64,000 nt of DNA from the NCBI GenBank assembly GCA_000004985.1, contig GG738904.1. One strand, given 5' to 3'. This stretch comes from Naegleria gruberi. Its lineage: Eukaryota. The notes beneath the pieces were generated by a model. The model was not told the origin of the DNA and searched no databases. It saw only the letters and a program-made list of their open reading frames with translations. Made by a program: the position numbers and the translations under genes. Shown piece after piece: positions 10,442-39,115 of this stretch (the first letter of the stretch is position 1; the number at the start of each line of letters is the position of its first letter).

Positions 10442-13400
10442 ATGGAACATTTACTCGTGTTGACTACTGTTGAAAGAATTGGTGATTCTCTTCCAAGTAC
10501 ACCTTCATCACAAAGAAGAAAGGGTTTCAATTTGAAGGGTTATATTAAAACACTCAATGAATTGATTGTTTTGCCAAATATTGACTTACACAAAGTGGTT
10601 CAACCTCTCGTTGATCTCTACGATAATGTCTCTAAAGTAAGTAGTTTTTCAGAAGGCTGTAGTGGTTTATTAACGCTACATGGTTTTTTTGTTGCAAATT
10701 TCATTATCATCATGTTTGGCGCCACAATTTTGTATCTTCCAATGACACAATTTTTCAACAATAACAACAACAAAACAAAATGATGATCAACTAATAATAT
10801 CATCATCATGCTGGTTATTATGTTGATATTTATCTAACAAAAACAAATTATCATATATAGACCACAATCAATGCTACATTAAAACCTTCTGAGAAAAGAA
10901 CAAAATTAGAGTTGATCAACAAATCAAAACTCATCATTCTCAATCTATTATCGGATTATATAAATTTTGCCATCGAAAATAAGGAAGTAAGTATGAATTA
11001 TTGTGAGGTTCATCAATATGAATTTGTTATTATTATTATTAATAATATATTTAATAGCTTGTTTTGCCAAATCATCACTTGAACAATTTGTTCTGTCAAT
11101 TTGATAATGATGATCTCTTGTTGGAAGAGAGACGTCAAGAACAAGATGAAGAAGAAGATGAAGATTTAGTTGCACTTGTTAAGGAACAATCAAAGAATGC
11201 TCATCAACCATCACAATCAGCTTCAACAATTACAGAAAGTACAAATGAAGGTAACGAATCTCCAAGTATTAAAAATGGATCTCTCAATCAGATCAGTGAT
11301 TTCGAATATGGGCATGAAAGAGGTAGATCACCAAGTGGCTTGGGAGCATCTCTTGATTATTTAAATGCTTACAAGCAAAGAAAACAAAAGAAATCTTCAT
11401 CAAAATCACAAAGAAACTTTAATGTAAAGAGAAGTGCTGCCACTTTTACTCAACCAAAAGAATTGGACGAAGCAACAGCTCTCAACATTATTCAATTAGT
11501 TTCCACTAGATTATTATTACAACATGATATGTTCTATGATGCCACACAAGAAGAAATCCAAAAAACAGCAGTTAATAATTATCTTGAACAACAAATTTCC
11601 TATAGATGTATGGAGATACTATTCAAAATAAGTGTTTGTAAACCAGATACTGTTTTCAAGACTATTGTTGGTGATTCATTACCTACATCACTTAATAATA
11701 ACTGTATGGATATCAGTTTTAATACTGATCTTCAATCTGACAAACTTCCTTTCTCTTCCTCTCTTTCACATTTCAAACTGATCGAATATGTAAATTGGAC
11801 AGTTGGTAATTTAGAAAAACTCTTAAAGGCAGTCAATGAAAACATGAAAGGTTTTACCAAATATTTGGAAGTCTTAACACCTCCTTTAAGATTAGCTATA
11901 TGGAACTTTATTACAAACTATAATAATGAATTTGTTGATATCATTAAGAATCCAAATGCTTCAATTGTTAATACAGCTAGAGAAACATTTGATAATATTT
12001 ATAAACAAACAGGAAAGAAACAAAAAAACAAGACATGGCCAGCACTTGCCACTTTATGCGTTTTGACTGCAGATGATCTTCTAAAGTGTGTAAAGGCAGG
12101 TAATGGTAAAAAGTTTGGTGGCAGTGAAAATATGACAACATTTATTCACAAAGATCTCTTAAAAGCAATGGAAGATAAGGATAAGTCTCTTATTTTACCT
12201 CCATTGATTGACATTTATAGAGCTGTATCATATGCACCATCAGATGTAGAAACAGCCTTTGCTGTTCTTTCTCTTTTGGTGGAAGAAAAATTCCTTTCCA
12301 TTTTTGTACCAGAACCAACAACAGGAAAAGTTTCTAAATGCTATAGTCCAGAAGAGTTGAATGAACTCGAAATGTGGACATTTTATGTAACAACACTTTA
12401 TAGAAGAAGCCCAGAAAAATGCAAAAAACAACTAATGATACCAATAATGGCAGATGGTACTTTAGAGCAAAAACAAACAGTTGCCAAAGTACTTCTTTTC
12501 CTTCTTACTGATAGATCTTCTCAATTTACCTACAATAGAAAGTTAGAAGTAGACTTTAAAGTACTTGCTTCATCTCTTCGTGAATTTTTCATTTCGACTA
12601 CAGATCAATTCAAAGGTAAAGCAAGAGAAACTGGTGATGATAATACTCCAACATTAGCACCAAGTGCATCCTTTAGAACACCAAAGAAAGGCTTTGCAGC
12701 TCTTTTAAGAGAGAAAGTAGGTGGTAAGGACAGTAGTAATTCTCCTACTGGATTGGGATCATTCGCAGGTCAACCAAACTTTAAAATGTTTGATACTGTT
12801 AACACAATTCTTCACGTTTTTTGTGCTGATCCAAGGTTTTTCCTTACAAAGTCAAACGAATCCGATCAAAATATCAATAATTTTGCCTATTTGGCTGACT
12901 TCTTTGTGCTAAATTCTGACCCAATTGTACAAGATCAAATAACTAGACTTTTCCAAAAGCTTTTCTTAGAACAATATATTAAGAACTGGGGAGATGATTT
13001 ATTTGTTGGATTCAGTACTATCTCAACAAGAGTTTTGTCAAGACTATCACCTGCTCTTTTCCTTCTTAATGAATTGGAACAATTGCAAGCAACAAAGACC
13101 TTACTTTTCCTTTTGAGAAACATTACCTATTGTGCTAAGAAATTCTATATTGCTAACAGAGACACTTATTTACTTTTGGAACACATTAGAACTAACCCTG
13201 ACAGAATTAATACTCTTGAAGTTTTATGTAGTAACTTATTGGTATGCCTTTGCTCAACTGATAAGGAGATTTGGCAGTCTACTACAAGATGTTTGAGAGA
13301 TGTTTGTGACCAAATTGAAATTTTGAATAATCACAACATTAAGAAGTTGAATTACAATTTTTACAGACAATTGGCAAGCATTGACTTGAATGGTAAATTT

Positions 13401-16400
13401 TACAATGAAAGAAAGTCACAAATCCAACTTTTCAAGAGAGTTGAAACTCAAACACCATCCATTTTGAAAGCCTTTGGTGAGGTTTATAACAGATGGAAGG
13501 AACTTCTTGATCAACTCAAGAGTGAAGATTCTGCTTCAAATATTACCTTGAGAGATTTGTTCCCTAATTACACCTCTTTGCTATGTGCTCTCGGTGGTGT
13601 ATGCATTCAAGATACAAAGGATGAAGATTCAAGCTTTGTTCTTGATTTCTTAAAGCCAGAGGCAACAAGTGCCAATAATGTTGACAGTTATATGGATGAC
13701 TTGATGAAACAAGTTATTTCAGACGATGTCAATGTCAGACAAATGGTAACCATCTCTGTTTCTACTGATTTATCACCAAGTCTTTTCACTAAATTGTTCA
13801 CTGCCATGAAGGCTTCAGTTCAAGAACAATTCGGACAAACATTTGTTATTAGTCAAAAGAATAACTTACTTGTTGATCAATATCTTCACATTCTCAAGAC
13901 AATTGTTGAAAATCCAGATACTAATACTGATCTTTCTCTTGCTCAAGAAATTGATTCCATTACTGATCTCTTTGCTAACTATTGTACACACAGCGAATTT
14001 GATAACAAGGATGTCCTTGAGTTGAAGAAGAAATTATGTCAATTCCTTGAAGTTTTGATGAGCAAAGTTGAATACTTGACTTTCAAGAACATTGAAGAAC
14101 AAAAGTTGAGAAGAACAATCATTGGTCACGTTATGGAATGGACAACTGATTCTGTCTTTAAAGAAAAGACATCAACCGGAGCAAGTGTATCAACTCCTCG
14201 TGTTGCTTCTGAGGCTCCTCTTCTAGAAAACAATTCCCAAGTTTCAACTGAAGTCAAGAAACTCTACACCGATCTTGATTTGTTGTGCATGAAGGCATGT
14301 ACTTCCCTTATCAATGGTATGGTTATTGCAAACGATGAAAAAGGAAGAGAAGAATATTCAAAATACTTTGCTTTCTTATTGAGATTCCTTGAAAAGGCTA
14401 AAGACAGTACTTTTACAGCTACAATTTACAAGGCCTTCTCTAGATTATTGCAAACAAACGTCAGTTTTGGTCTTGAGTATTACATGTCAAAGGTCTACGA
14501 TAATAATAACACTATTAGATCAACATTCTTGGGATTGCTATCTGAATTGATCAAGAAGGGACTTTTGGTTGAAGAAGAAGAAAAAAATAAGCAAGACAGA
14601 GTTTCTATTTCTGAATACCAAGAAATTATCAACAAACTTGTCTTTACCAATAGAAAGAGAGCTCTTTTTGCACTTTTTGATAAGTGCAAGAATCCAGAAA
14701 AAGATGATTTGTGTGAAGCTGTTATTAGAGTTTATCAATCAAAGGGTGAAATTGATAAGAATTTATTAGATTTGTTCCGTCAAAGTGTTACCAGAGAAGT
14801 TGCAACCACACCAAAATCACAACCTGAAACTCTTTTCAGAGCTAACTCAACCTCTACTAAACTCTTAAAGAAGTACTGTTTGAGAGTCAGTAACCCATAC
14901 TTGACAACTGTTATTGGTGGGTTCATCGATACTATGTGTACTAAGCCAACCAAATTTGAAATCGATCCACTGAAGGCTCAACAAAGAGGAGAAAGCGTTG
15001 AAGAAAACGTTGAAAATATTCTTGAAGTATTACAAGAATTTATTGACTGCCTCTGTGATTCAGTCCAACAAACACCTTACACCTTCAGAATGTATTGCAG
15101 ATATTTGTACGAAGAAGTTGGTAAGAAATTCACTAAACCAGATGATGACAATGATGAACAATTTGACTTTAAATATATTGCAGTTGGTGGTTTCTTAATT
15201 TTGAGATTGATTTGTCCAGCCATCACTTCTCCACATTTGTATGGTTTGTCAGGAAGTGATATTCCTGCTGACTCTAGACGTTATGCAATCATTCTTACAA
15301 AGTTGGTTCAAAACTTGGCAAACGGTATTGTTGACTCCAAGAAGGAAGAATTCATGAAGAATTTTGTTGATATTATTAGACTTAATCTTAACAAGATTCA
15401 AACCTATTTTGAAAAGATTGCTGCTCCAATAGTTGAAAATGAAGAAGTTTTGAGAATTGAAGAAACAGTCACTGAAGATGAATTGAAGGAAGCATATGAA
15501 GTTCTCTATAGATTCTTCTATAACTATGCTGATACATTGAGAGAAGAATTAAGTTCACTCTATGATGATATTGAAGATGAGGAAAAGGAAGTATTGGAAG
15601 AAGTTGATATCAATGAAAAGCCATCCTCTAAACAAAACGGTAAATCTCTCAATGATCTCTTAGAAAAGGCTATTGAACAATTTGGTAAACCAGCTGAAGA
15701 AGAAAAAACAGGAAGAAGACTTTCTGTAAAGCTTAGCAAGGATGATGAGTTCTCCAATCCATTACTTAAGGAATTGCTCAGAAAGAATGAAAAGAAAGAT
15801 ACCTCAAAGATTGCTGAAATGAAATTCTTCTCTATCAGTGAACACAAGAATGCTAAGAATCAACGTATAGTTTATTTCATTCCTTACAATTTGGATTTGA
15901 CTAGATTCTCTCTTGATTTATACTTGTACTATGTTCTCAAGAGTATGGAAACCATTTGGAAGGAACCTTATATCATTGTTGTAGATTCTACCTTCTTGAC
16001 AAAGAAATTTGATATTCGTTTGTCTGTATTTATTCAACTTTCCAAACACATTCCACAAGGTGCAAAGAAGAATCTTCAAGAAATTTACTTGGTTAACCCA
16101 AATACATTCTTCAACAAGACCACTAAGAAGCTTGTCTCCATGTTAAGTCATAATCGTTGGAAGGTCATTACTACCAGCTCTTTGCCAGCTGTCACTGACC
16201 AAAAATCAAAGACTCCAACCTCAAAGGATCCATTAGAACTTGTCAAACCTGAACATTCTATGCTTCCATCTCTCACTCAACAATTGTATGAAAAGAGTGA
16301 AATAATATATAATACTGAAGTTGTTCTTGCTTCTCATACAACTGATTGTGAAATTAGACTCTTTGATCAATACATGTTTATTGTTATCAAGGGAGAAAAG

Positions 16401-19337
16401 TTTATTAATAACAAGGTACCAGCAGATTGTTTGGAACATGTCAATGTAACAAAGATTGCCAATATTGCTGTAAAGAAGTCATTGTTTGGTAAATCAAGCA
16501 AGGCCACTAAAGATTTTGTTGTCAAGTATATTGATGATGAAGATGCTGAAGCAGCCTACAACTTTAGAGCTCAAACCATTGAAGAAAGAGACCAAATTAT
16601 GCAAGGTATTAGAAACTATGTTGAAAGAAAATCAAGAGGAACAAAGACTGGAAAATCTCTTGAACGTGAATTTAAGAGACTTAAACTTCAAGATGTACCA
16701 GGTCAACTCCTTGCTATTTCATTCTTCAATCTCGATTCTAAACACACTCCAATTAGAGCTAGTGCTTATTCGTTACTTGCTTCTATCTTTGAACAAGTCA
16801 AGATTTCTTCTCATGGTTTGATTTTAGAAAGTGATGCTGCTTATGTTCCAAGAAATACTGAAAATACTGTTTTGAGAATTAGTGAATACGTTGCCAGAAA
16901 TAAGCCTGAACTCACTTTAGAATTCATTTGTGAAGCTCTCAATGCCTTCAAGACAATCCAAGGAAATAAGTCCAAGTTGAAGTTTGCATCCTTCATCCTC
17001 CCATGGCTCGATAACTTGTCAAGATTTGAAATTTCTACTAGTGTTGATGAAGTTGATGAAAAGACCGAAACAATTAAGAATTGGTTCGAAAACTTTACCA
17101 AACTCTGTATTGCCAATGAAGAAATCTATCCAAAATTACAAAATGTTTGGAAGCACGTCTGTAAACTCTCTTTGCCACTCATTAGAATTGCTATTGAGAG
17201 TGTTATCAAACAAGGTACAACAAGTGAAATGCTCATGAATGGAGAACAATCTATTATTGGCGATATTTTAGGAACTATTTTGTTGCACTCACCTCTTCAA
17301 TGGAATGTGGCTCAATTTATCATTAACAAGATTGTTGAACCACTCATGACAGAGGAATTGAATATTGACCTTTTGAACAAAGCAACAGTTAAAGAGTTGG
17401 TGAAATCAAAAGATATTCTAGGCAAGATTCCAGTTTACATGTCTTATCTCCTTATGTTGTCTTTTAATAGTCAAATCAATTTGTTAGAGAATTTGCCATA
17501 CGTACTCTTTATTATTTCTCTCTTCTTGGGTGTTGGTTCAGATACCTACTTGAGATCAATTGTTTATGGTATTTGTTGTAACTGTGTTCACTCCCTTGTT
17601 TTGGAATTGCCAGCATGTGAACAATTTGAGCATGTAAGAGCCAAATTGCAAAAGCTTCATTTGAGAGTTCTTGAAAAGGACATCAAGTCAAGTTTCATGG
17701 GTGGTGAACATGAACCACAACCTTTTGCCTCATACTCTGATTTTGTCAATAAGGTTTCACAAGGAAAGGTAACATTCGATGAAACTACCATGTACAAGTA
17801 TGAAGATATCATGAGATACTTTAAGGAAATCATTGAATGCTTTGACTTTAGTTACGATAGCCTTATTCAAGCTAGGGGTAAGACTTTGAAATCTCAATTT
17901 GGTTCTACCATTATAACCTCATCCAAGGCAACTCATAGTGTTATTGAAGAATCATCTGAAAATTCCAAGGATATGGATGAAGATGGTACAGAAAATGATA
18001 TGACAGAAGGAGAAGTTGATGATGAGCATAACGGTTCTAATCCAAGCACTAGCACCTCAGATATCGTTAAATCTGGCAGTGATACCATCAAGAGTGTTTG
18101 GTTGAAGATCTTTACCAACTTATGTAAGGATACCATGAAGACAGCCAATCTCTTATTGTTCCCTAAATCTTTAATCTCATTCAGTATTATTTCCACCTCA
18201 GAACAATCATATGATATGATTCCATTTGTTCTTAACTTTATTGGTAAGCGTGGTGTTGAAACTCTCTCCGAAAATGAGCTAATGTTGTCTGTTCTATTGT
18301 CAATTAACCAATTCTGTATTAATATGGTTGTTGAAAAGGATAGAATTGAAACTTTGAGAAAGATTATTATCTTTGGATTCTTCTTGTTGACCATTGCCAA
18401 CACAAAGATTTATTCTGCTGTAACCAAGTTGCTCAGTACAGTTTTTGCCATTCTTTTTGAAGCTAGAGATATTCATGACGGTTTCTTGTCTATTGGTGAT
18501 TACTTTAATCAAGTTTTCAGATCTGACTACTCCAAGTACCTATCCATCACTAAAGAATTTGAAGAAACTGTTGGACTTTCATTTGGCCAACACTTCTCAT
18601 TCACCGTTTCTCTTCTTCTCATGAAGGGACTTGCTATTGATGACTCCACCATTAGAAAGGCAACTATTTCTCTCCTCAAACAAATCCTCTCTATCAGTTA
18701 CAAACTCAAGTTTGAACCACAAAACCAACTAGGCTTTATTGCTGCTTTAATTCCATTCGATAAGCAGTACAACTCTGTATTATATAGTGAACAACTCTAT
18801 TCTGAAAGCATGTTCACTAAGGAAACTGTTTTCCTCTTCCAAAAGTACCTCTTTAGCATTACTGCATCCAACATTGATCTTGATAGCTGTGCTTCTGTTT
18901 ATAGATCACTTGCAAGAGGTTTTGAAGCCATTCCTGATACTTTTGCAGATGTTTTCCAAGATCACCACAGTATGTCTCAAGTCATTAAGGTATACACCTC
19001 CTCTCAAGATGATACTATCATTGAACATAGTTTGAATCTTTTCAAGATTATGAGTAATAATGCCAAATCAAAGAAACTTCAAGTTAAGGAACCATTTGCT
19101 GATTATGGATTCAAAGGTTTCCGTGATCAAACTACATTCCAAACCACTAAGGATGACTTGAAGAAGAAATGTCAAAAGACTTTGATTACATTCTTAACTG
19201 AAAACTTTAATGAACAAGAATATCCATCCATGGATTCTGTAATTATTTCCAAGACTGGTATGAAGAAATCATTCCTTAAAGCCGCCTCTTCAAGTCCAGT
19301 TGTAAGACAAGCATCAGGAACAAACTTTAAGAAATAA
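10442..19337 (+). CDS. NF1: Neurofibromin (NF1) orthologue, RasGAP with Sec14-like region, about 2866 aa; join(10442..10636,10861..10986,11058..19337)
   Basis: The RasGAP signature reads FLRFLEKAKD...FRMYCRYLYEEVGKKF...IAVGGFLILRLICPAITSPHLYGL, matching the FLRxxxPAIxSP finger and switch region. Downstream blocks align closely to human NF1, for example TLEFICEALNAFKTIQGNKSKLKFASFILPWLDNLSRFE and YMSYLLMLSFNSQINLLENLPYVLF. Two 5' introns have GTAAGT donors and ..ATAG/..AATAG acceptors. The third exon is a single 8.3-kb ORF. Confidence 0.85.
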
Positions 19338-19465
19338 AATTTTTATCATAATTCTTTGAATTCAAGAACAATATTTTTGCAATGTTATACATATCTCCTT
19401 ACTAAATATTGATATATTATCTTAAGCACAAATATTATTCATTAGAATATTATTTATTTAAAAAA

Positions 19466-20112
19466 ATGTCAAAACCAACTTTGAATATTTGCCTGTTGGG
19501 AAATGTTGATTGTGGAAAATCAACACTGACAGGAAAATTATTAGAAGTTATCGGAGGTGATTCTTCCTATTCTGAAAAGATTAAAAAATCAACTAGTAAG
19601 AATTTTGTCGAGTCAAAAAATCATTTCTTGAATTTAATGGATGTTTGGGGTATGTGGAATTAATTGTGATTAAAATTGAAAAGTATTGATTTAAAGTGGA
19701 TCAATACCTCCTGCTGGAAGTAGCAAAGGTATTTGAGGAAGATTCGAACAAGGGTATTAGAAATATAGTGATAATTGTATTGGATGCCTCGTCAGGTGGA
19801 TATGAGGCCGGCCTTAGTCAACTAAAACATCTCTTGCTATTTTTGAAAACTCTGGAAGGTATTATGCATAACAAACAATTTATATTTTGTGTGAATAAGA
19901 TGGATCACTCAAGTGTTAATTATTCTGAATTGAGATTTAAAGAAATTGTCAATGAAGTATCTAGAATGGTCACTCGGCTTGGATTCTCACAACCACCACC
20001 ACAATTCATTCCAATATCCTCACTGAAATGCGAAAATATTTTAGAAAATTGTGAAAACATGAGTTGGAATGCAAGTCAACCTTCACTACTGGATGTTATA
20101 AACTCATTGTAG
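19466..20112 (+). CDS. EF1A/eRF3/HBS1-like translational-GTPase G domain only, degenerate, about 199 aa; join(19466..19649,19697..20112)
   Basis: The N-terminus NICLLGNVDCGKSTLTGKLLEVIGG matches the EF1A P-loop region. VIIVLDASSGGYEAG...FIFCVNKMD matches EF1A through the NKMD G4 motif. The end ...MSWNASQPSLLDVINSL corresponds to the end of the EF1A G domain. The switch I region is missing. DxxG with the catalytic His (DAPGH in EF1A) is replaced by DVW-V across a 47-nt GTATGT..TTAAAG intron. Domains II and III are absent. Confidence 0.5.
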
Positions 20113-20335
20113 CAAAAATCTTTCATGTTCCTGCCAGGAATTGAACCCCGGACTTTCTAAAATGGTCCGTTGTAAAATTCTACAGTTTTCAAAATAAATC
20201 AAGAGTATACATTTTTCGCAAAGTTTAATCTCTTGATAGTTAGTAATCTGAAAGGGAATCTTCACCTATTTATCTCTCAGTTTTCATAAAGAAAAATATA
20301 TAAAACAAAATGATAATCAGCTGAGGATAGATTTG

Positions 20336-21073
20336 ATCTTTTCAATGACATTTTTTCTATTGCCACATCAACTGTTGAAAATATTGATTCCTCTTTAATG
20401 TTTGAAATGCTTCTTGCTTTGAAGAATGATGACACTAGTATTTTGTGGGAAAATATGTATCAATCCATTCTCAAACTTCATCAATTGTTGGCCGCCGAAA
20501 GTGTTTCAAACTCATTCTCTAGAATGGTAAAAGATTTGGTTAAAAACAAGTATGAATCAATTGGATGGACCAATGTACCAGGAGCAGATGAAGATGAGGA
20601 AAATCTTGATGAATTACGTCCATCTCAATTTGGCCTGTCGTTTTGGTCTCACTGAATGTGTCACTGAAGCCTTTAAACGTTATCAAGAAAGAAACTCAAC
20701 CATTATTCCTCCAATTCTTCGTAATGCTGTTTATAGAGCTGTTGTTTCTAATGGTGGAGAACGTGAATATTATCAAATTTTGAATCAATTCAAAGCTGAG
20801 CAAGATTCTGTGGAAAGAACCAAGTTAGTGTATGCAAGATTCCACTCTTGCAAACGACCTTGGATTTGGCCCTTTCTCCACCATGTTAAGCCACAAGATA
20901 GTATCTTCCTTATTAGAGAAGTTGCAAGAAATGTACCAAGTGGACCAAACGTTGCTTTTGTCAGAACTAGATATGATGCCATTCTCTCAAAATGTGGACA
21001 AGATCAAGTCAGTAATAGATTATCATATGGGGTTGGTTCTCTATTCACTAATATCTTTGAAAGGGATGAATAG
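20336..21073 (+). pseudogene. C-terminal fragment (domain IV, about 230 aa) of an M1-family aminopeptidase (ERAP/PSA-like), frameshifted and lacking the catalytic N-terminal 550 aa
   Basis: Two overlapping ORFs in different frames, 20398..20655 and 20552..21073, together align to the M1 aminopeptidase C-terminus. Matching blocks include ESIGWTN.PGADEDEENLDELRPSQ, LACRFGLTECVTEAFKRYQER and IPPILRNAVYRAVVSNGGEREYYQILNQFK. A single +1 frame change lies near 20625-20635. No HEXXH or GAMEN region exists upstream, where the GTPase-like gene sits instead. Confidence 0.6.
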
Positions 21074-21103
21074 ATTCAATATTTTGCTCCAAATATTGAA
21101 AAA

Positions 21104-21688
21104 TTGAGCATGAAGCATTATTATATTAGTGGAATGAAACAATTAACATTACTTAATATTGGGAACAATCAAATTGGTGTAGAAGGATCCAAATTCATAC
21201 ATGAAATGAAACAATTAACATCACTTGATATATATTATAATGAAATTGGTGTAGAGGGATCCAAATTCATAAGTGATATGAAACAATTAACATCACTTAA
21301 TATTAATTACAATCGAATTGGTGATGAAGGAGCCAAATTTATAAGTGAAATGAAACAATTAACATCACTTGATATTTATAACAATGAAATTGGTGTTGAA
21401 GGAGTCAAATCAATAAGTGAAATGAAACAATTAACATCACTTAATATCAGTGGAAATCAAAGTGGTGCCGAAGGAGTCAAATTAATAAGTGAAATGAAAC
21501 AATTAACATCACTTAGTATTAATTACAATCGAATTGGTGATGAAGGAGTCAAATTAATAAGTAAAATGAAACAATTAGCATCACTTGATATTAGTGGAAA
21601 TGGAATTGGTGATGAGGGAGCCAAATTAATAAGTGAAATGAAACAATTAAAATCGCTTAGTATTCATAACCAACAGATGTTTAAGTAA
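21104..21688. repeat. Tandem 72-nt coding repeat array (LRR units)
   Basis: The core gaaatgaaacaattaacatcacttgatat recurs about every 72 nt. Confidence 0.8.
21110..21688 (+). CDS. RNI-like leucine-rich-repeat protein, 24-aa repeats, apparently lacking an F-box; paralogue of the 38442..39115 gene
   Basis: Eight tandem 72-nt units encode ..MKQLTSLDIxxNxIGxEGxKxISE.. The units are nearly identical at nucleotide level to the repeats at 38790..39115. ATG is at 21110, directly after the aminopeptidase fragment. Confidence 0.55.
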   Translation: MKHYYISGMKQLTLLNIGNNQIGVEGSKFIHEMKQLTSLDIYYNEIGVEGSKFISDMKQLTSLNINYNRIGDEGAKFISEMKQLTSLDIYNNEIGVEGVKSISEMKQLTSLNISGNQSGAEGVKLISEMKQLTSLSINYNRIGDEGVKLISKMKQLASLDISGNGIGDEGAKLISEMKQLKSLSIHNQQMFK

Positions 21689-21793
21689 AATCCAAAAAAA
21701 AGGATTTGGCCAGACTCTGCCTCACACTCATTATAATAACTGTTAAGATTCTACTCTTTTTTTTTACTTAATGTATCTAAATCTCTGCCCATT

Positions 21794-23454
21794 CTATCCT
21801 AAGGTGTGAACTCCTTGTTGCGAATTAAATGGTGCTTCGGTTGATGTTGTTGGGTTATCATCTTGTGCAATAGGTGTGGTGGCTGTTGATTCAGTTGCAT
21901 AATTTGTAGTTGCATTGGATTGTGAACTGCTTGTGGCACTACTATCAACAGGTGTTGTAATGTTAGTGTTAGCAGCAGGTTGTGTCATGGTATTGATTAT
22001 CCTTGGTTTGACATCTTCCAAAAGGGTTGGAATAGATTGAGAAAGTTCCTTCTCTGTTAACTCCCACAACTTTGGAAGAAAGTCTGAATACTTCAATATT
22101 ATTCATTACAAGTATCATATTCTTCAACAATTCTGGAAGAGCCTCCCTCAAATGATCACTCTTTGGTTTGACGAGTAAAAAGTTGTACATAACTTGAAGA
22201 ATGGTGAGCCACAATGAAGAGAAACCATTATCTTGTTGACTTTCAGTATTATTCACAGGTAACATTCTTGGTAAAAAGTGCAGGAATATTCTAGCAAGTA
22301 AGTTGTTGGCTCTGACCCTAAGCTCTTCTAAAGAGGAAATATCCATTTCTGTATTGTGATTGGTTTGATATTCAGTTGTCTTTGGTTTGAGTGTGAGAAG
22401 AGTTTGGAAAAATGTCTTGAGCAATACACGATCCATACACATCATTAAGAGTTGATCATTGAGGAGATATTTTAGATTTTGTGAGTCTTCTTGGTTGGCA
22501 GTGAATGAATATCTGAAATCACAACTATAAACAAGAGATCTTTGTAAGGTTGAAAGTGCTTGGGTTCTAATATCTCTTTGGAGGTGGCTCAACATTTGAA
22601 TTTGACTATTATTCAATTGTGACATTAGTAAGTTCAGAACATTGACCGGTCCACTAGTGTTAATGCCACCAGTGCAACACAATACTGCTATACCTTCAAG
22701 AATTGAAAGCCAAGCATTGATCCACTTGTTATCCAATTTGATGACGTTTTGGGATGAGTTAGCAGATGAATAGGCAATGGATACAATTCTCTTCAAAATT
22801 TCCATAACCAAATTTTCCAAAATGATTAAAATGTCCATTGTGAGAGCCATAAGCTTTTTAAGGGTGGATACAAATTGTTGGGAGCTATTGCTTCCATTGG
22901 AGGTGTTTTGAATATTTACATTTGTTGTAATGGAAGAACTCAAAACGGACAAGATACTTTGGACAATGTTGGGAAATTATCAGGAACAACAAACCATAAC
23001 CCGAAATGAGTAGTATCATCCTGTAATGTAGAGTATTGAAAACTGAGAGTAAGTACATCTAATGATCTGGTAATTAATTGTAATGGTTGTGAAGGTTTGA
23101 TGGATGTGAAGAGTGAGCTATTAGGATTATTATTTATCCATGAGGAGGAAACGTTGGAAATACTTCTCAAAATCTTGAAAACTAAATGATCCCACAAATC
23201 TACAATAAGTCTTGATGAGCTATCAGTAAATATTGTGGAAGGATTAAGATTGGTAGCATTTGTACGATCTTGAATTTGGTAGCCATTGGTGAGAGTAGAG
23301 TTTCACCTTGTCTCGACAAGAACATGTGAATCATAGGAAGTAAACTATTATGGAAAACACCCAACATGGTTTCACTCCATTGCTTACCAAGGTTATCAAT
23401 AAGGACAGAGCATTTCTTTTTGACCAATCTCCCATTCTGCTTGATTTTCAACAC
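21794..23454 (-). pseudogene. Fragmentary minus-strand gene (helical protein of unknown family) with at least three frame discontinuities; pseudogene or poorly assembled
   Basis: Consecutive minus-strand ORFs 23200..23454, 22940..23197, 21969..22952 and 21794..22096 abut in different frames. The break at about 22100 cannot be bridged by any GT..AG intron of at least 40 nt, since only a 19-nt candidate exists. The 5' end runs into the next plus-strand gene, so no start is visible. Confidence 0.35.
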
Positions 23455-24051
23455 TATTGAATTGGGTAATGTTGCTTGGTCATTCTTGTTCTGATTGGTT
23501 GATTATTTGTTACTGGGAGTGGGCTGTTTCTATCGCTACCAGAACTAGTACCGAAAGGATTGGATGAACCTACAGATGGTGGAGCATTATGTACTTACAA
23601 GGAAAAGTCAAAAGTTTCTTGACTACTTTGGGAAAGAATGAATCTTTTGGAAGATTGGAAGAATTTACAATTGGAATGTATGTCGAGGCAACAGAATTGC
23701 AAAAATTGAAGAAATCTCTCAAACGTTTGACTCGAGTTAAATCTGAAGAGAATGACTGTTAGGTCCGTTATTAACTTGGTAAATGGATTGAATGGTACTG
23801 ATTGGTTGGTATAATTGCAAAATGGAAATCATTAATTTGTAAACGTGTATACTGTAAACATAATTCCAAATAAGTTTCAATCTTTCGCAACCAGTATTTC
23901 TATTCAAATTATTATTAATCAAAACATCACACAATAAATCCAAACAGAAGAGGGAAGTATCAAAGTCTCTTTCATAATAGTAATAGGTTGCATTTTGTTG
24001 TTGTTTTCAATGTGAACAAGTGAGGAGCAGAATGAATGTGCCAATTAAAAA

Positions 24052-27000
24052 ATGCAAGACGATAAATCATCAATTCCCGAAGGTGTCGTTGCTGATGAAG
24101 AAACAAATCCAACTATTCCAGGACATGAATCCACCATTGAACAAAATCCTTCTTCAACGGAGGAGAGCAAAATGACCTATCCAACACTCCACAAAAGTTT
24201 GAAGAAATCTTTCAGTCAAATTGTGTCTTGTGGAGGAAGTTTTGTTTGTTCTGATAAGTTTGATGGTGTGACACTTCCTGGATTGGAATTACTTGTTTCT
24301 GCTGCTCAAGATTCTGATAAGAAATATAAAGCAATGCCCTTTCCGATTGTTTATAAAGAGCAAGCTGATGAAATTATTAGAATTGCAAAGAAATCACCTT
24401 ATGGAAAGGGAGAGGAAACAATTTATGATGACAATGTGAGAAATTCCTATGAATTGGAACCAAATCAATTTAGAATTACAAATACAATGTGGCAAAAAGA
24501 ATTAAATCAATTATTGGAAACAAAAATTAAAAGTGGACTGGGAATTGACAAGTACAAGAATGTGGAATGTAAATTGTACAAATTACTATTGTATGAAAAA
24601 GGAGGACATTTTGAATATCACAAAGATTCTGAAAAAGAATGTAAACAAACATGCACATTGGTTATTATTTTACCATCCATCTTTGAAGGAGGAGAATTCA
24701 AAATCAAACACAATGATTATGAAATGGAAATTGCCACAACAAATGATTATGCAACTGAGTGAGTATTATAGTATGAACAATTTATTGAAAATTAATTTCA
24801 AATCTCCCATTATTGAATTTAATCATGATGAATTCTTGGCAGTTGTCATTTCATTTCATTTTACTCTGATTGTGATCATGCTGTTATGCCACTCACAAGT
24901 GGATACAGAACTTGCCTTATCTATAATATTATTGTAACAACTCATCAAGAAAATCAGCAATTATCCATTGCAGATAATCATGTACATTCTGAAAATGTAA
25001 GAGAACAATTATCAGAGTGGTTGAAAACTGATTTGTCCAAGAAACCATTAGTTTATTTGCTGGAACACGAATATACAACAGAAAGTTTAGTTTTTGGATG
25101 TGAAAATTTGAAAGGAAATGATTACAAAATTTATTCTGCACTCAAAGCATCCAAATTGCCATTGCTCTTGTTTCCATCTTTCTTTACAAAACGTGTTAAT
25201 GAAGGGTTTAGTGATGATGATTTCTTTGAAGAGGGAGTGTTTTTAACCATCTCTAAAATGTACTTTGATGAAAAGGCAATACTTTCCGATGTCTCTGTTT
25301 CGCCATCTCAGGTTTTTTCATTTCCAGGAAAAGATATGAAAGATATGAAACTAACAAAGTCAACTGAACATCAAACAGGTAAGTACGAGAGAATTATTTA
25401 GATAGTTAATCATTCTAACAGGAAATTATGGAACTCAATCATCTAAATGGTATCAAAAAACATGCTTGATCATTTCTTCTAATCAATTTAGTTCAATTGT
25501 GGAGCTAGGATTTAATTTTGGTATGAACTACTTTGAATTTCTTTCTAAAGCTGAAAGTGAGCAGATTAACGAATTTTATGAATCATTTACAAAGGAAGAA
25601 TGGAAATTACCATACAGACATACTATTAGCAAGCAAGAGATGTTCGTAATGACATTAATTAAAACTGGCAAGAAAGATTTGACCAAAAAATTCCTTGAGG
25701 AAGAGTGTAGCTCGGCCTCAATCACAGCAAAAGCTTTAAAACAATGTTTGAATGTATTTGAAGACCAAGAGTTTAAACAGATTGTTTTTCAATATTGTAT
25801 TGATAGTTTAACAAATCTTGAACACGGACATAAGCTTGATATTGATGAATACTTGGAAGCACTAGAGCCGTTCGTTACCCCTAAAATGGTAAACTATATT
25901 GAAACACAGCTGGTCAAATCAGTCGATTCAATCCGTAATCTAAACTCATTCTACTTATTTTGTGAAAAAAAGCGAGACAAATTTAGTTATACATTTAATA
26001 AGGGTTAGTTTTCTACATTTATTTCAATGCTCACCCTATTTAGATTTATTTTTACCGATATTTAGATCTCTTTATAGCCAATTAAAACACTGCAAAGCTC
26101 AATATTTTCCTCTTTGTGACACTTATATGTGTGAGGAATTTGTAAAAGGTACAATAGAATTCTACTTTAACAATGATTATAATAGAGGTTTACAACTCAT
26201 TCAAAAGTATGGATACAATACATTTGATCCAAATAAGGTTTTTTCAGTTTTGAACCCATCCCATTATTTTGAAAATTACAAAAAAGATATTGAAGACAAT
26301 GAGTTGAAATTGTTCTATTCTGGATTTAGAAAATACATGATTGAAAAACGATTACTTGATAACCGATCTGAGAGAGAAGTAGTTCTCAAACATTTACTCG
26401 AAAAAGAAGAGTATGAAACTCTCTTGCATACTTTGAAAACCTATAATAAGAATGTCATTAGTAATATTTATATTTTGGATAGATTTCTAAAGAATTTCAA
26501 ACCAATAGTTGATAATACTATATTGCAACAATGGATTAATATAACGCAAATGTGTATCTCCTCTATTAAGGGAGGCTTGTCTAGAAGCTATATTGAAATA
26601 TTAACCTACAAACTTCCTCACACTTTGCCATGCACTTGTGAGCTGTGTGCATCTGTACAAAAGTTTTTAAAGAGTTCTAAAGACTCCTTTTCCAAAATTG
26701 GAGTTTCTAAAACAAGCTATGATCACGTGAAAAGTTATTTGGAAAAATTAGAACGTTTGAGTCAATATTGGTCAAATGAAAAATTAACGATTAACAAGAG
26801 TGGTTATTCTAGCAAATATAGTGAAAATATTATGAGATATGCTTTAGAAAACCTCAATGAATTATTACAATTTTTGATCCACCACCAAACTGATAAAGAC
26901 TCTAGACCTCAATTTAGCTTTACAAGAATTACAGCATCTAGCCCAGCTGGAGAAGAGAGTGTAAAAAGAGAAGCAGAACGGGTAGAGAAAGAGAAGAAAG

Positions 27001-30050: not shown

Positions 30051-31871
30051 ATGAGAGAAGGAGAAAGTCAATACGGTGATATCTTGTCTGTTTCAGGACC
30101 AGTCGTCGTTGCTGAAAAGATGGAAGGTGCTGCCATGTACGAACTTGTTCGTGTTGGTAATCAACAACTTGTGGGTGAAATTATTCGTTTGGAAGGTGAT
30201 ACTGCCACAATCCAAGTCTACGAAGAAACATCAGGTTTGACTGTTGGTGATCCAGTATTGAGAACTGGACAACCATTGTCTGTTCACTTGGGTCCAGGTA
30301 TCATGGGTAGTATTTTCGACGGTATCCAACGTCCTTTGGAAGTCATTTATAAAAACTGCAATGAAGATATTTACATTCCTAGAGGTATTAACGTAAATTC
30401 ATTGGATATGGATAAGAACTGGTTTTTCAACCCAACAAACTTCTCTATTGGTGATAAAATCACTGGAGGTGACATTTTCGGTGAAGTTGAAGAAAATGAC
30501 TTTATTAATCACAAAATCCTCCTTCCACCAGGTGCTATGGGTGAAATTACTTATATTGCTAGCCCAGGTAACTATACTCTTAACGATGCTGTCATTGAAG
30601 TTGATTTCAATGGTATGAAGAGACAATTCGGTATGGCCCACTTCTGGCCTGTACGTCAACCTCGTCCAGTTATTGAAAAGTTAGCTGGTGATTATCCAAT
30701 TTTGACTGGTCAACGTGTTTTGGATGCTGTCTTCCCTTCTGTCCAAGGTGGTACTTGTGCTATTCCAGGTGCCTTTGGTTGTGGTAAGACTGTCATTTCC
30801 CAAGCTATTTCTAAATATTCTAACTCTGAAGCTATTATCTACGTTGGTTGTGGTGAACGTGGTAACGAAATGGCTGAAGTATTGATGGAATTCCCTCACC
30901 TTACTGTTACTAATCAAAAGACTGGTAAGGAAGTTTCTATCATGAACAGAACTTGTCTTGTTGCTAACACTTCAAACATGCCTGTTGCTGCCAGAGAAGC
31001 TTCTATTTATACTGGTATTACATTGTCCGAATATTTCAGAGATATGGGTATGAACGTTGCTATGATGGCTGACTCTACTTCTCGTTGGGCTGAAGCTTTG
31101 AGAGAAATTTCTGGTCGTCTTGCTGAAATGCCTGCTGACTCTGGTTATCCAGCTTATTTGGGTGCTCGTTTGGCTTCTTTCTATGAACGTGCTGGTAAGG
31201 TTCGTTGTATTGGTAATCCAGGTCGTACTGGTTCAATTACTATTGTCGGTGCTGTTTCTCCACCTGGTGGTGACTTTGCCGATCCAGTTACTGCTTCAAC
31301 TTTGGGTATTGTCCAAGTCTTTTGGGGTTTGGATAAGAAATTGGCTCAAAGAAAGCACTTCCCTTCAGTCAACTGGCTCATTTCCTACTCTAAATACATT
31401 AACTCTTTGGAACCTTTCTATGAAAAGGTCGATCCTGAATTCGTTCGTTTGCGTACAATCATGAGAGAAATTCTCCAACAAGAAGAAGATTTGACAGAAA
31501 TTGTCCAATTGGTCGGTAAGGACTCACTCCCAGAAAACGATAAGGTTACATTGGAAGTTGCTAAATTATTGAGAGAAGATTTCTTGCAACAAAACTCATT
31601 CACTGATTATGACAAGTATTGTCCATTCTTTAAGACTATTCTCATGTTGCGTAACTTTATTAAATTCTATGAAGATTCTCAAAAGGCTGTTCAAGAATCA
31701 GGTGCCAAGATTACATGGAACACAATTAAGAATGCCATGACTGATTTGACTTACAAGTTGTCAAGCCAAAAGTTTATCAAGCCATCCCTTGGTGAAGCTG
31801 GTGTTAAACAACAACTTAACGACCTTTATCAAGAAATTTCAAATGCTTTCAAGAATCTTGAAGAAGAGTAA
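30051..31871 (+). CDS. vatA: V-type proton ATPase catalytic subunit A, 606 aa, single exon
   Basis: Near-full-length identity blocks to V-ATPase subunit A include [50 protein letters not shown], the Walker [10 protein letters not shown] and [12 protein letters not shown]. Confidence 0.95.
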
Positions 31872-38441: not shown

Positions 38442-39115
38442 ATGAGCAAACGAAAAAGACAAGATTTTGAAAATCATCAATTAATTAATTCGGTGAAGGA
38501 AATATTCACTAACAATAGTTTGGAAGAGAAATCAAAAAAGAGTGGGAAATTCCAACAAGAAATATTTTCAGATGATGTTTGTTTTGAAATAATTTCCATG
38601 CTCGATGATTCGTGGTTTATTTTGAATAATTGTTCCTTGATTTCAAAACAATTCTTTAATGTGATCAAGGAACGCAATTTAAAAAAAAAATTACAGAGAA
38701 ACGAGTTGAATTATTCATGAAAAGTCAGTTTAGGAATAGAATTATTAATCTTAAAGTTTTTAGATATTTGCTTGACTCTTTTGAAAAACTCAAATTCATT
38801 AGTGATATGAAACGATTAACGTCACTTGATATTTCTTTCAATCAAATTGGTGTACAAGGGGTCAAATTCATTAGTGAAATGAAACAATTAACATCACTTG
38901 ATATTTCTTTCAATCAAGCTAGTGATGAAGGTGCTAAATACATAAGTGAAATGAAACAATTAACATCACTTAATATTACTAATAATGAAATTGGTGATGA
39001 AGGAGCTAAATACATTAGTGAAATGAAACAATTAATATCACTTATTATATCTAGGAATCAAATTGGTGATGAAGGTGCTAAGTACATTAGTGAAATGACA
39101 CCACTAGGAAAATAA
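38442..39115 (+). CDS. F-box plus RNI-like LRR protein; tentative join(38442..38704,38764..39115)
   Basis: The F-box-like N-terminus is FSDDVCFEIISMLDDSWFILNNCSLISKQFFNVIKE (ORF 38442..38720). Four and a half 24-aa LRR units follow in the ORF at 38717..39115. The two frames can be joined by a 59-nt intron with a weak GTTGAA donor and a TTTTTAG acceptor. A frameshift is an alternative. Confidence 0.5.
38790..39115. repeat. Tandem 72-nt LRR coding repeats, paralogous to 21104..21688
   Basis: The same gaaatgaaacaattaacatcacttgatat core recurs. The encoded units are EMKQLTSLDISFNQIG.EG.KYISE. Confidence 0.8.

What the first reader, a model, noticed from the sequence alone, without database searches (positions are those of the whole stretch)
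19466..23700. A 4-kb stretch packed with gene fragments: a G-domain-only EF1A paralogue, a frameshifted M1-aminopeptidase tail, a truncated LRR copy and a frame-broken minus-strand gene
Four adjacent units are each incomplete relative to their family. The first, at 19466..20112, is an EF1A-like G domain that stops exactly at the G-domain/domain-II boundary. It lacks switch I and has lost the DxxG-His catalytic residues. The second, at 20336..21073, is only the last 230 aa of an M1 aminopeptidase and carries a +1 frameshift. The third, at 21110..21688, is an LRR array without the F-box that its paralogue at 38442 has. The fourth, at 21794..23454, is a minus-strand gene with at least three frame breaks and no visible 5' end. 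Such clustering suggests a decaying segmental duplication or insertion, or alternatively a locally poor assembly. The GTPase fragment still has an intact ATG, an A-rich leader and a frame-preserving intron. It might therefore be expressed as a dead G-domain protein.
Basis: partly seen in the sequence, partly recalled or inferred. Interest (0 to 1): 0.6.

Follow-up and report, generated by a model that had tools for sequence, protein, structure and literature searches.

The report
Row of decayed gene remnants in Naegleria
A 4.5-kb stretch of the Naegleria gruberi genome, flanked by intact genes, holds four truncated genes side by side; two are clearly broken pseudogenes that the public annotation lists as proteins, and one is an unannotated, still-open, catalytically dead fragment of an elongation-factor-like GTPase, so the finding is real but mostly ordinary.

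Summary
The window is Naegleria gruberi NEG-M. ORF 20552-21073 is identical to XP_002671594.1.

All four units are real and incomplete:
- **eEF1A-like G domain.** Two exons, 199 aa, no domains II/III. Its closest relative is the full-length divergent N. gruberi paralogue NAEGRDRAFT_60891 (34% identity). Both have D-x-x-V in place of DxxG-His.
- **ERAP1_C tail of an M1 aminopeptidase.** It has one certain frameshift, probably two more, and a nonsense codon.
- **LRR array.** Eight repeats, beginning mid-repeat about 20 bp after the aminopeptidase remnant.
- **Minus-strand GBF1-like C-terminal fragment.** It has at least one real frameshift, two further frame breaks and no Sec7 domain.

An independent public contig reproduces one frameshift, so that break is not a reference sequencing error; the other breaks have no independent sequence. 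Consensus tiny introns do not explain the breaks. No close parental copies, terminal repeats or viral relatives were found.

The best reading is deletional decay of a former gene row, not a recent segmental duplication. Two remnants are annotated as "predicted proteins", one through an implausible 22-nt intron. The GTPase ORF is unannotated. Its intactness is only weakly significant (P about 0.05-0.34), so whether it is expressed remains open.

The parts
19466..19649 (+). eEF1A-like GTPase, exon 1. Contains the P-loop GNVDCGKS, a shortened region in place of switch I, and beta2-beta3 up to D59-V-W.
19650..19696 (+). 47-nt phase-1 intron, GTATGT...TTTAAAG. If it is retained, the frame stops at 19661-19663.
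   Evidence: Splicing gives an ungapped alignment with NAEGRDRAFT_60891 (DVWV versus DAPV). Other introns in the window are 40-55 nt.
19697..20112 (+). eEF1A-like GTPase, exon 2. NKMD (G4) and the G5 serine are kept. The ORF ends at LLDVINSL-TAG, at the boundary between the G domain and domain II.
   Evidence: Codon-usage score is 0.125 per codon, against 0.37±0.12 for intact genes.
20113..20322 (.). Non-coding spacer and presumed deletion junction. It has no remnant of EF-Tu domains II/III or of the peptidase domain. It contains a tRNA-like T-arm motif that is not statistically significant.
20323..21103 (+). Remnant of an M1 (PSA-type) aminopeptidase covering only the ERAP1_C domain (profile 36-300 of 318). 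Lesions: a frameshift at about 20617-20630, probable compensating shifts at about 20833-20838 and 20878-20886, and nonsense TAG at 21071-21073. The annotated protein NAEGRDRAFT_73400 (XP_002671594.1) is ORF 20552-21073 inside it.
21110..21688 (+). LRR_6 (RNI-like) array of 8 x 24 aa, open, with no F-box. It starts mid-repeat about 20 bp after the aminopeptidase remnant and is in the same reading frame.
21794..23454 (-). C-terminal helical-repeat fragment of a GBF1-like ArfGEF (TPR_28), with its own stop codon at 21794-21796. Frame changes lie at 22077-22099, about 22955-22994 and about 23200-23306. The annotated NAEGRDRAFT_73402 (XP_002671648.1) covers 22850-22071 plus 22048-21794 and uses a 22-nt 'intron'.
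23455..23943 (-). Possible upstream continuation of the minus-strand remnant. A consensus GTAAGT..TAG 145-nt intron (23454-23598) would link it to ORF 23599-23722. There is coding-like signal at 23740-23920, no start codon and no family match.
   Evidence: weak.

Best explanation
Between an intact neurofibromin-like RasGAP gene (ending at 19337) and an intact 2OG-oxygenase-like gene (starting at 24052), N. gruberi carries the eroded remains of four older, lineage-specific, divergent genes.

**The four genes.** An eEF1A-derived pseudo-GTPase, an M1 aminopeptidase paralogue, an LRR protein, and (convergently oriented) a GBF1-like ArfGEF paralogue.

**Inferred history.** A few deletions cut the row.
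- One deletion, now the 20113-20322 spacer, removed the GTPase's domains II/III together with the aminopeptidase's catalytic N-terminal ~600 aa.
- One junction at about 21100-21120 removed the last part of ERAP1_C and the 5' part of the LRR gene.
- One removed the Sec7-containing 5' two-thirds of the GBF1-like gene.

The aminopeptidase and GBF1 remnants have since collected small frameshifts and a nonsense codon, and are non-functional.

**What is shown.** Family identity, truncation, frame lesions, and the reality of one lesion in independent sequence.

**What is inferred.** The deletion history, the in-situ origin, and non-function of the GTPase and LRR ORFs, which are still open.
For: - **Identity of the pieces:**
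- **Source and annotation:**
- **Frame lesions:**
- **Tiny introns do not explain the breaks.**
  - No consensus-donor short intron bridges the first aminopeptidase break or the 22077-22099 break.
  - The near-consensus candidates at the other aminopeptidase sites would delete homologous, domain-internal sequence.
- **Independent sequence:** contig L001 is identical across the 22077-22099 frameshift.
- **Missing domains are really absent:** the spacers hold no Sec7, EF-Tu D2/D3 or peptidase remnants.
- **Complementary truncation pattern on one strand:** 3'-cut GTPase, then 5'- and 3'-cut aminopeptidase, then 5'-cut LRR. The tail-to-tail LRR/GBF1 ends both keep their stop codons.
- **Host origin:** all pieces keep host-like codon usage in the homologous frame and host-like GC.
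- **No close parent:**
- **Intact neighbourhood:**
- **Room for relics:** N. gruberi is 57.8% coding against 71-73% in N. fowleri (PMC8296547).
Against: - Synteny with other Naegleria species could not be examined, so in-situ decay is not shown to be more likely than ancient insertion of fragments.
- The word-indexed homology search missed the paralogue P0152. The negative results for aminopeptidase and GBF1 parents therefore only exclude close copies.
- The GTPase and LRR ORFs carry no disabling lesion.
- All indels of the GTPase relative to its paralogue are in frame.
- Two remnants are annotated as proteins.
- The 22955-22994 and 23200-23306 breaks could be non-consensus 38-44-nt introns.
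Confidence: 0.68

Rival explanations
1. Recent segmental duplication or insertion. The fragments would be copies of pieces of extant N. gruberi genes, pasted here by ectopic recombination, end-joining or transposon capture, and now decaying.
For: Four unrelated partial genes packed into 4 kb resemble gene-fragment mosaics. The LRR repeats are 80% identical in DNA to another LRR locus at 38.8 kb.
Against: - There are no parental copies in the window except the multicopy LRR.
- The closest relative of the GTPase is 34-45% identical.
- The aminopeptidase and GBF1 searches returned only self or nothing.
- There are no terminal inverted repeats or flanking repeats.
- There are no viral relatives.
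- Few lesions combined with very high divergence means each piece evolved for a long time as a coding gene, not as a recent dead copy.
Confidence: 0.12
2. Assembly or sequencing artefact. The genes would be intact and the frame breaks would be errors in a low-quality stretch.
For: Several breaks lie within 3 kb. The paralogous LRR locus has a break at an A10 run, which shows that such error-prone sites exist in the window.
Against: - An independent contig reproduces the 22077-22099 break exactly.
- The aminopeptidase and GBF1 breaks are not in homopolymers.
- Even with frames repaired, the catalytic and Sec7 domains and domains II/III are absent and there is no room for them.
- Neighbouring ORFs of 2757, 1879 and 606 aa are intact.
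Confidence: 0.04
3. Some units are functional short genes. In particular, the 199-aa G-domain-only eEF1A-like protein (and perhaps the LRR-only protein) would be expressed. It would bind nucleotide through intact G1, G4 and G5 motifs but could not hydrolyse GTP or bind tRNA, and would act as a pseudo-GTPase.
For: - It has an intact ATG, a typical short intron that restores frame and homology, and no stops or frameshifts in 199 codons.
- All indels against the paralogue are in frame (a 29-aa gap and two short insertions of about 3 and 7 aa).
- G1, G4 and G5 residues are conserved.
- It shares the DxxV state with the full-length NAEGRDRAFT_60891. The catalytic loss therefore predates the split and was compatible with retention of a gene.
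- N. gruberi is known to have several highly divergent eEF1A versions (PMC4342817).
Against: - There is no orthologue at 50% identity or more in 1.84 billion representatives.
- It is not in the annotated proteome.
- Codon-usage score is about 2 SD below intact genes.
- Absence of lesions is expected by chance with P 0.05-0.34 if it died together with its neighbours.
- It sits in a block of demonstrable pseudogenes and ends at a probable deletion junction.
Confidence: 0.16

Closest known systems
NAEGRDRAFT_60891 (XP_002671928.1). A divergent N. gruberi eEF1A paralogue, one of the 'several, highly divergent versions of eEF1A' noted for this species (PMC4342817).
   Same: It is the best single-domain relative: 34% identity over the G domain and 45% over exon 2. 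The N-terminus is similar (KPTLN...GKSTL.G.LL). Both have the same 3-aa deletion after EAG, IFCVNKMD, and D-x-x-V replacing DxxG-His at the same ungapped position.
   Different: The paralogue is full length (432 aa with domains II and III) and keeps the switch-I region. The window copy lacks about 29 aa of switch I, has two short insertions of about 7 and 3 aa, ends at the domain I/II boundary and is unannotated.
Divergent, functionally re-modelled EF-1alpha paralogues of protists (PMC3699394).
   Same: Lineage-specific eEF1A copies with degenerate GTPase motifs that probably no longer act in elongation.
   Different: As far as I know (from memory, not checked in that paper), those are complete three-domain proteins. 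This one is a G domain only, in a pseudogene-rich block.
Unprocessed pseudogenes and gene relics produced by partial deletion.
   Same: Truncation, frameshifts and a nonsense codon, with retained introns and host codon usage. The annotation pipeline rescues them as short ORFs or with a micro-intron.
   Different: Four unrelated relics are contiguous in a compact protist genome. The relics are far diverged from any extant paralogue but carry few lesions.
Puromycin-sensitive-type M1 aminopeptidases (ERAP1_C domain).
   Same: The tail aligns with PSA residues about 572-794 and with aminopeptidase N to about residue 864-899. ERAP1_C scores 138 bits after repair.
   Different: The catalytic domain (Peptidase_M1, with its GAMEN and HEXXH-E motifs) is absent, and the frame is broken.
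GBF1/Gea-family ArfGEFs.
   Same: A C-terminal helical-repeat domain, PF23325, including the ...LPELLKNMILVM... stretch.
   Different: There are no Sec7, DCB or HUS domains. There is at least one real frameshift. No PDB sequence match was found.
Naegleria RNI-like LRR_6 / F-box-LRR multigene family.
   Same: 24-aa repeats with the MKQLTSL..N.IG.EGAK motif, 80% DNA identity to the locus at 38.8 kb.
   Different: It has no N-terminal F-box-like region, and the array begins mid-repeat.

Membership tests
eEF1A / EF-Tu-type translational GTPase | G1 P-loop GxxxxGK[ST] | tested here: met
   G12-NVDC-G17-K18-S19 is invariant in the alignment. GTP_EFTU 2.7e-14.
eEF1A / EF-Tu-type translational GTPase | Switch I / G2 (RGITI threonine) | tested here: not met
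   There is a gap of about 29 aa against NAEGRDRAFT_60891 and eEF1A covering this segment.
eEF1A / EF-Tu-type translational GTPase | G3 DxxG followed by the catalytic His | tested here: not met
   The spliced product reads D59-V-W-V62. Both Gly and His are replaced by a single Val, as in the paralogue (DAPV).
eEF1A / EF-Tu-type translational GTPase | G4 NKxD and G5 SAx | tested here: met
   NKMD and the PIS-S-LK serine are conserved (numbered N129-D132 and S170 in that alignment's 200-aa first model, N128-D131 and S169 in the corrected 199-aa product).
eEF1A / EF-Tu-type translational GTPase | Domains II and III (beta-barrels that bind aa-tRNA) | tested here: not met
   The ORF stops at the domain I/II boundary. 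No D2/D3 match was found in the ORF or in any frame of 20095-20335. The paralogue has both.
M1 aminopeptidase | Peptidase_M1 catalytic domain with GAMEN and HEXXH-E motifs | tested here: not met
   Only ERAP1_C is detected. Upstream lie a 210-bp spacer with no family match and then the GTPase.
M1 aminopeptidase | ERAP1-like C-terminal domain in one open frame | tested here: not met
   The domain is present (138 bits), but only after joining frames and reading through the TAG.
GBF1/Gea ArfGEF | Sec7 catalytic domain | tested here: not met
   There is no Sec7 match in the joined 554-aa reading or in the three minus-strand frames of 23380-24051.
GBF1/Gea ArfGEF | C-terminal GBF1-like TPR/HDS domain | tested here: met
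   PF23325, 47.5 bits against a cut-off of 27, profile 72-180 of 185. The match spans the 22077-22099 frameshift.
F-box / LRR protein | N-terminal F-box plus LRR array | tested here: not met
   LRR_6 8.7e-33, but no F-box. The array begins mid-repeat at about 21120.
Pseudogene (aminopeptidase and GBF1 units) | Disabling lesions relative to homologues that are real in the DNA | tested here: met
   Frameshifts and a nonsense codon. One frameshift is reproduced in independent contig L001. No consensus intron explains them.
Pseudogene (GTPase and LRR units) | Disabling lesions, or lack of expression or selection | tested here: inconclusive
   Both are truncated but open. P(no lesion) is 0.05-0.34. 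Expression and dN/dS are not testable with these tools.

The most novel reading that the evidence does not exclude
The unannotated 199-aa ORF is a living gene: a G-domain-only, switch-I-less, DxxG-His-less descendant of eEF1A. Together with the full-length NAEGRDRAFT_60891, it would define a Naegleria-specific family of eEF1A-derived pseudo-GTPases that kept nucleotide-binding motifs but left translation elongation. The truncated member would work as a stand-alone nucleotide-binding module.
Probability: 0.16. Interest if true: 0.5.

Novelty: new member of a known kind. Interest (0 to 1): 0.25.

Why it matters
The main value is for curation.
- Two N. gruberi RefSeq "predicted proteins" (XP_002671594.1 and XP_002671648.1) are pseudogene fragments. 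One model relies on a 22-nt intron.
- An eEF1A-like ORF next to them is missing from the annotation.

The locus also gives a concrete example of how the extra non-coding DNA of N. gruberi, compared with N. fowleri, can arise from deletional erosion of lineage-specific paralogues.

It points to a small N. gruberi clade of eEF1A paralogues that share loss of the catalytic DxxG-His. That clade would be worth a look for anyone studying re-modelled translational GTPases.

None of this is surprising to a specialist, and it opens no long-standing question.

Tried and rejected
- **Transposon or Pack-type capture.** No terminal inverted repeats or flanking repeats beyond chance. No dispersed copies in the window.
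- **Viral origin.** No relative of the GBF1-like ORF in IMG/VR. GC and codon usage are host-like.
- **RNA genes.** ARAGORN and Rfam find nothing in 19300-24100. A T-arm-like motif at about 20125-20160 (minus strand) scores no better than shuffled sequence.
- **Tiny introns as the cause of the breaks.**
  - All GT..AG pairs were enumerated.
  - None with a consensus donor fits the first aminopeptidase break or the 22077-22099 break.
  - GTTAGT and GTCAGT candidates in the aminopeptidase would delete homologous sequence.
  - The 22955-22994 and 23200-23306 breaks remain ambiguous.
- **A chimeric GTPase-aminopeptidase transcript.** It is possible only with the non-consensus donor GTAGCA.
- **Orthologous loci.** Two metagenome scans, using the RasGAP C-terminus and GTPase exon 2, found nothing.
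- **Exact look-ups.** Other ORFs were not found in the public assemblies.
- **Structure.** The single-sequence AlphaFold model of the 327-aa GBF1-like ORF had pLDDT 37.7, so no fold search was run.
- **PDB sequence search.** The GBF1 fragment gave nothing.
- **Source of the independent contig.** The accession ERR1078381 is not mentioned in the paper library.
- **Tool restriction.** The spliced GTPase could not be submitted to tools that accept only exact window sequences.

Full report
**Source and setting**

ORF 20552-21073 is identical to N. gruberi XP_002671594.1 / NAEGRDRAFT_73400, on a 297,120-bp scaffold. The V-ATPase A ORF at 30051-31871 is XP_002671597.1, on the same scaffold. GC is about 33%, which matches N. 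gruberi NEG-M (PMC8296547).

The block lies between intact genes.
- A 2757-aa RasGAP/CRAL-TRIO (neurofibromin-like) ORF ends at 19337.
- A multi-exon 2OG-oxygenase-like gene starts at 24052.
- Further out are a USP-type hydrolase, V-ATPase A, a SUN-domain protein, tubulin, an amino-acid transporter and a WD40 protein.

**Unit 1: the GTPase**

- Pfam GTP_EFTU scores 2.7e-14.
- The nearest PDB sequences are archaeal and eukaryotic EF1A (4e-19), then eRF3 and HBS1.
- The gene has two exons, 19466-19649 and 19697-20112.
- The 47-nt GTATGT..AAG intron is typical in size. Introns that bridge long ORFs elsewhere in the window are 40-55 nt with GTAAGT, GTATGT or GTTAGT donors.
- My first model carried an extra Gly. 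The donor splits the GGT codon, so the product is 199 aa and reads D59-V-W-V62.

An exhaustive HMMER search of 1.84 billion representatives with exon 2 found no orthologue at 50% identity or more. The best single-domain hit belongs to a cluster that contains N. gruberi NAEGRDRAFT_60891. That protein is a 432-aa divergent eEF1A paralogue with domains II and III.

The two proteins align at 34% identity (121 bits, 3e-37). At the G3 position they show an ungapped DVWV against DAPV. They also share a 3-aa deletion and IFCVNKMD. Loss of DxxG-His is therefore a shared, older trait of this N. gruberi clade. This agrees with the published remark that N. gruberi has several highly divergent eEF1A versions (PMC4342817).

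The window copy differs from its paralogue in four further ways.
- It lacks about 29 aa of switch I.
- It has two short insertions of about 7 and 3 aa.
- It ends at LLDVINSL*, the domain I/II boundary.
- Nothing resembling domain II or III follows it.

G1, G4 and G5 residues are kept. The copy is not in the annotated proteome.

**Unit 2: the aminopeptidase tail**

ERAP1_C scores 5.6e-36, and the best PDB match is puromycin-sensitive aminopeptidase.
- The frame opens at 20317 and homology starts at 20323.
- tblastn with the PSA segment shows the switch from one frame to another between 20616 and about 20630.
- The 16 codons at 20836-20883 read in the other frame (KIPLLQTTLDLALSP) align with PSA LLPDLIQKVLTFALSEE.
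- Using that reading and passing through the TAG at 21071 raises the Pfam score from 125 to 138.4 bits. It also extends the match to profile position 300 of 318.
- The remnant therefore carries three frameshifts (one certain, two probable) and one nonsense codon.
- It is cut at both ends.
- The annotated 173-aa protein is simply the longest ORF inside it.

**Unit 3: the LRR array**

The array has eight 24-aa LRR_6 repeats: 7.6 copies of 72 nt, 83% matches and no indels. Repeat homology starts at about 21120, roughly 20 bp after the aminopeptidase homology ends. It is in the same reading frame.

**Unit 4: the minus-strand fragment**

PF23325 (GBF1-like TPR) scores 47.5 bits, and the match spans the 22077-22099 break. 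Coding signal runs from 21797 to about 23370, with frame changes at about 22090, 22960 and 23200-23300. No Sec7 domain is found anywhere up to 24051.

The annotated NAEGRDRAFT_73402 (344 aa) starts at an internal ATG. It bridges the first break with a 22-nt "intron", which is far below the intron sizes seen here.

**Are the breaks real?**

A 905-bp Logan contig from run ERR1078381 matches 22545-21621. It has one SNP (22260, Leu to Phe) and a 20-nt deletion in the spacer at 21692-21713. It is identical at the 22077-22099 frameshift.

No consensus-donor intron explains the first aminopeptidase break or the 22077-22099 break. The near-consensus candidates at the other aminopeptidase sites would delete homologous sequence. 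Two GBF1 breaks could be non-consensus 38-44-nt introns.

**Origin**

- No parental copies lie in the window.
- There are no terminal repeats.
- There are no viral relatives.
- Composition and codon usage are host-like.
- Each piece is very divergent from any known relative yet carries few lesions. It must therefore have been a coding gene for most of its history.
- The truncations are complementary along the strand.

I therefore favour a few deletions within a former gene row, followed by point decay, over insertion of duplicated fragments.

One caveat applies. The word-indexed search missed the paralogue that HMMER found. therefore exclude only close parents.

**Status of the GTPase ORF**

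At the lesion density of its neighbours, 600 bp would stay lesion-free with P between 0.05 and 0.34. Its codon-usage score is about 2 SD below intact genes. The in-frame indels and conserved nucleotide-binding motifs show past constraint, not present function. I put about 16% on a living pseudo-GTPase.

**Verdict**

The pseudogene reading is right for two units and open for two. The duplication and assembly-error readings are not supported. The finding has low to moderate interest.

Noticed in passing
The ORF changes frame right after an A10 run (38681-38690). It has only about 4.5 LRRs, and its F-box match is below threshold (E 0.078).
   Followed up: partly
window 22049-22070 (minus strand): RefSeq/JGI model NAEGRDRAFT_73402 uses a 22-nt 'intron' to bridge a genuine frameshift. 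NAEGRDRAFT_73400 is just an ORF inside an aminopeptidase remnant. Both look like annotation artefacts.
   Followed up: yes
window 21692-21713 and 22260; L001 1-905: The independent Logan contig (ERR1078381) differs from the reference by a 20-nt deletion in the 105-bp spacer between the convergent stops and by one non-synonymous SNP. It is either an allelic haplotype or another strain. The nature of the run is unknown.
   Followed up: partly
window 20125-20160 (minus strand): A tRNA T-arm-like motif (GGGGTTCAATTCCTGG) lies in the spacer after the GTPase. ARAGORN and Rfam do not call it, and it scores no better than shuffles against the window's tRNA-Phe.
   Followed up: yes
window 23589-23762 (+) and 23737-23943 (-): Short ORFs with coding-like codon usage and no family match lie between the GBF1-like remnant and the next gene. 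They may be further relic exons. A consensus 145-nt intron (23454-23598) could link one of them to the remnant.
   Followed up: partly
window 11064-19337: A single uninterrupted 2757-aa ORF encodes a neurofibromin-like protein (RasGAP plus a CRAL-TRIO-like domain) immediately upstream. It shows that the local sequence quality is high.
   Followed up: partly
method: The word-indexed protein search returned no hit for the GTPase. The exhaustive HMMER search found an N. gruberi paralogue cluster at E 7e-17 that shares the 8-mer IFCVNKMD. Negative results from the indexed search are weak evidence.
   Followed up: yes
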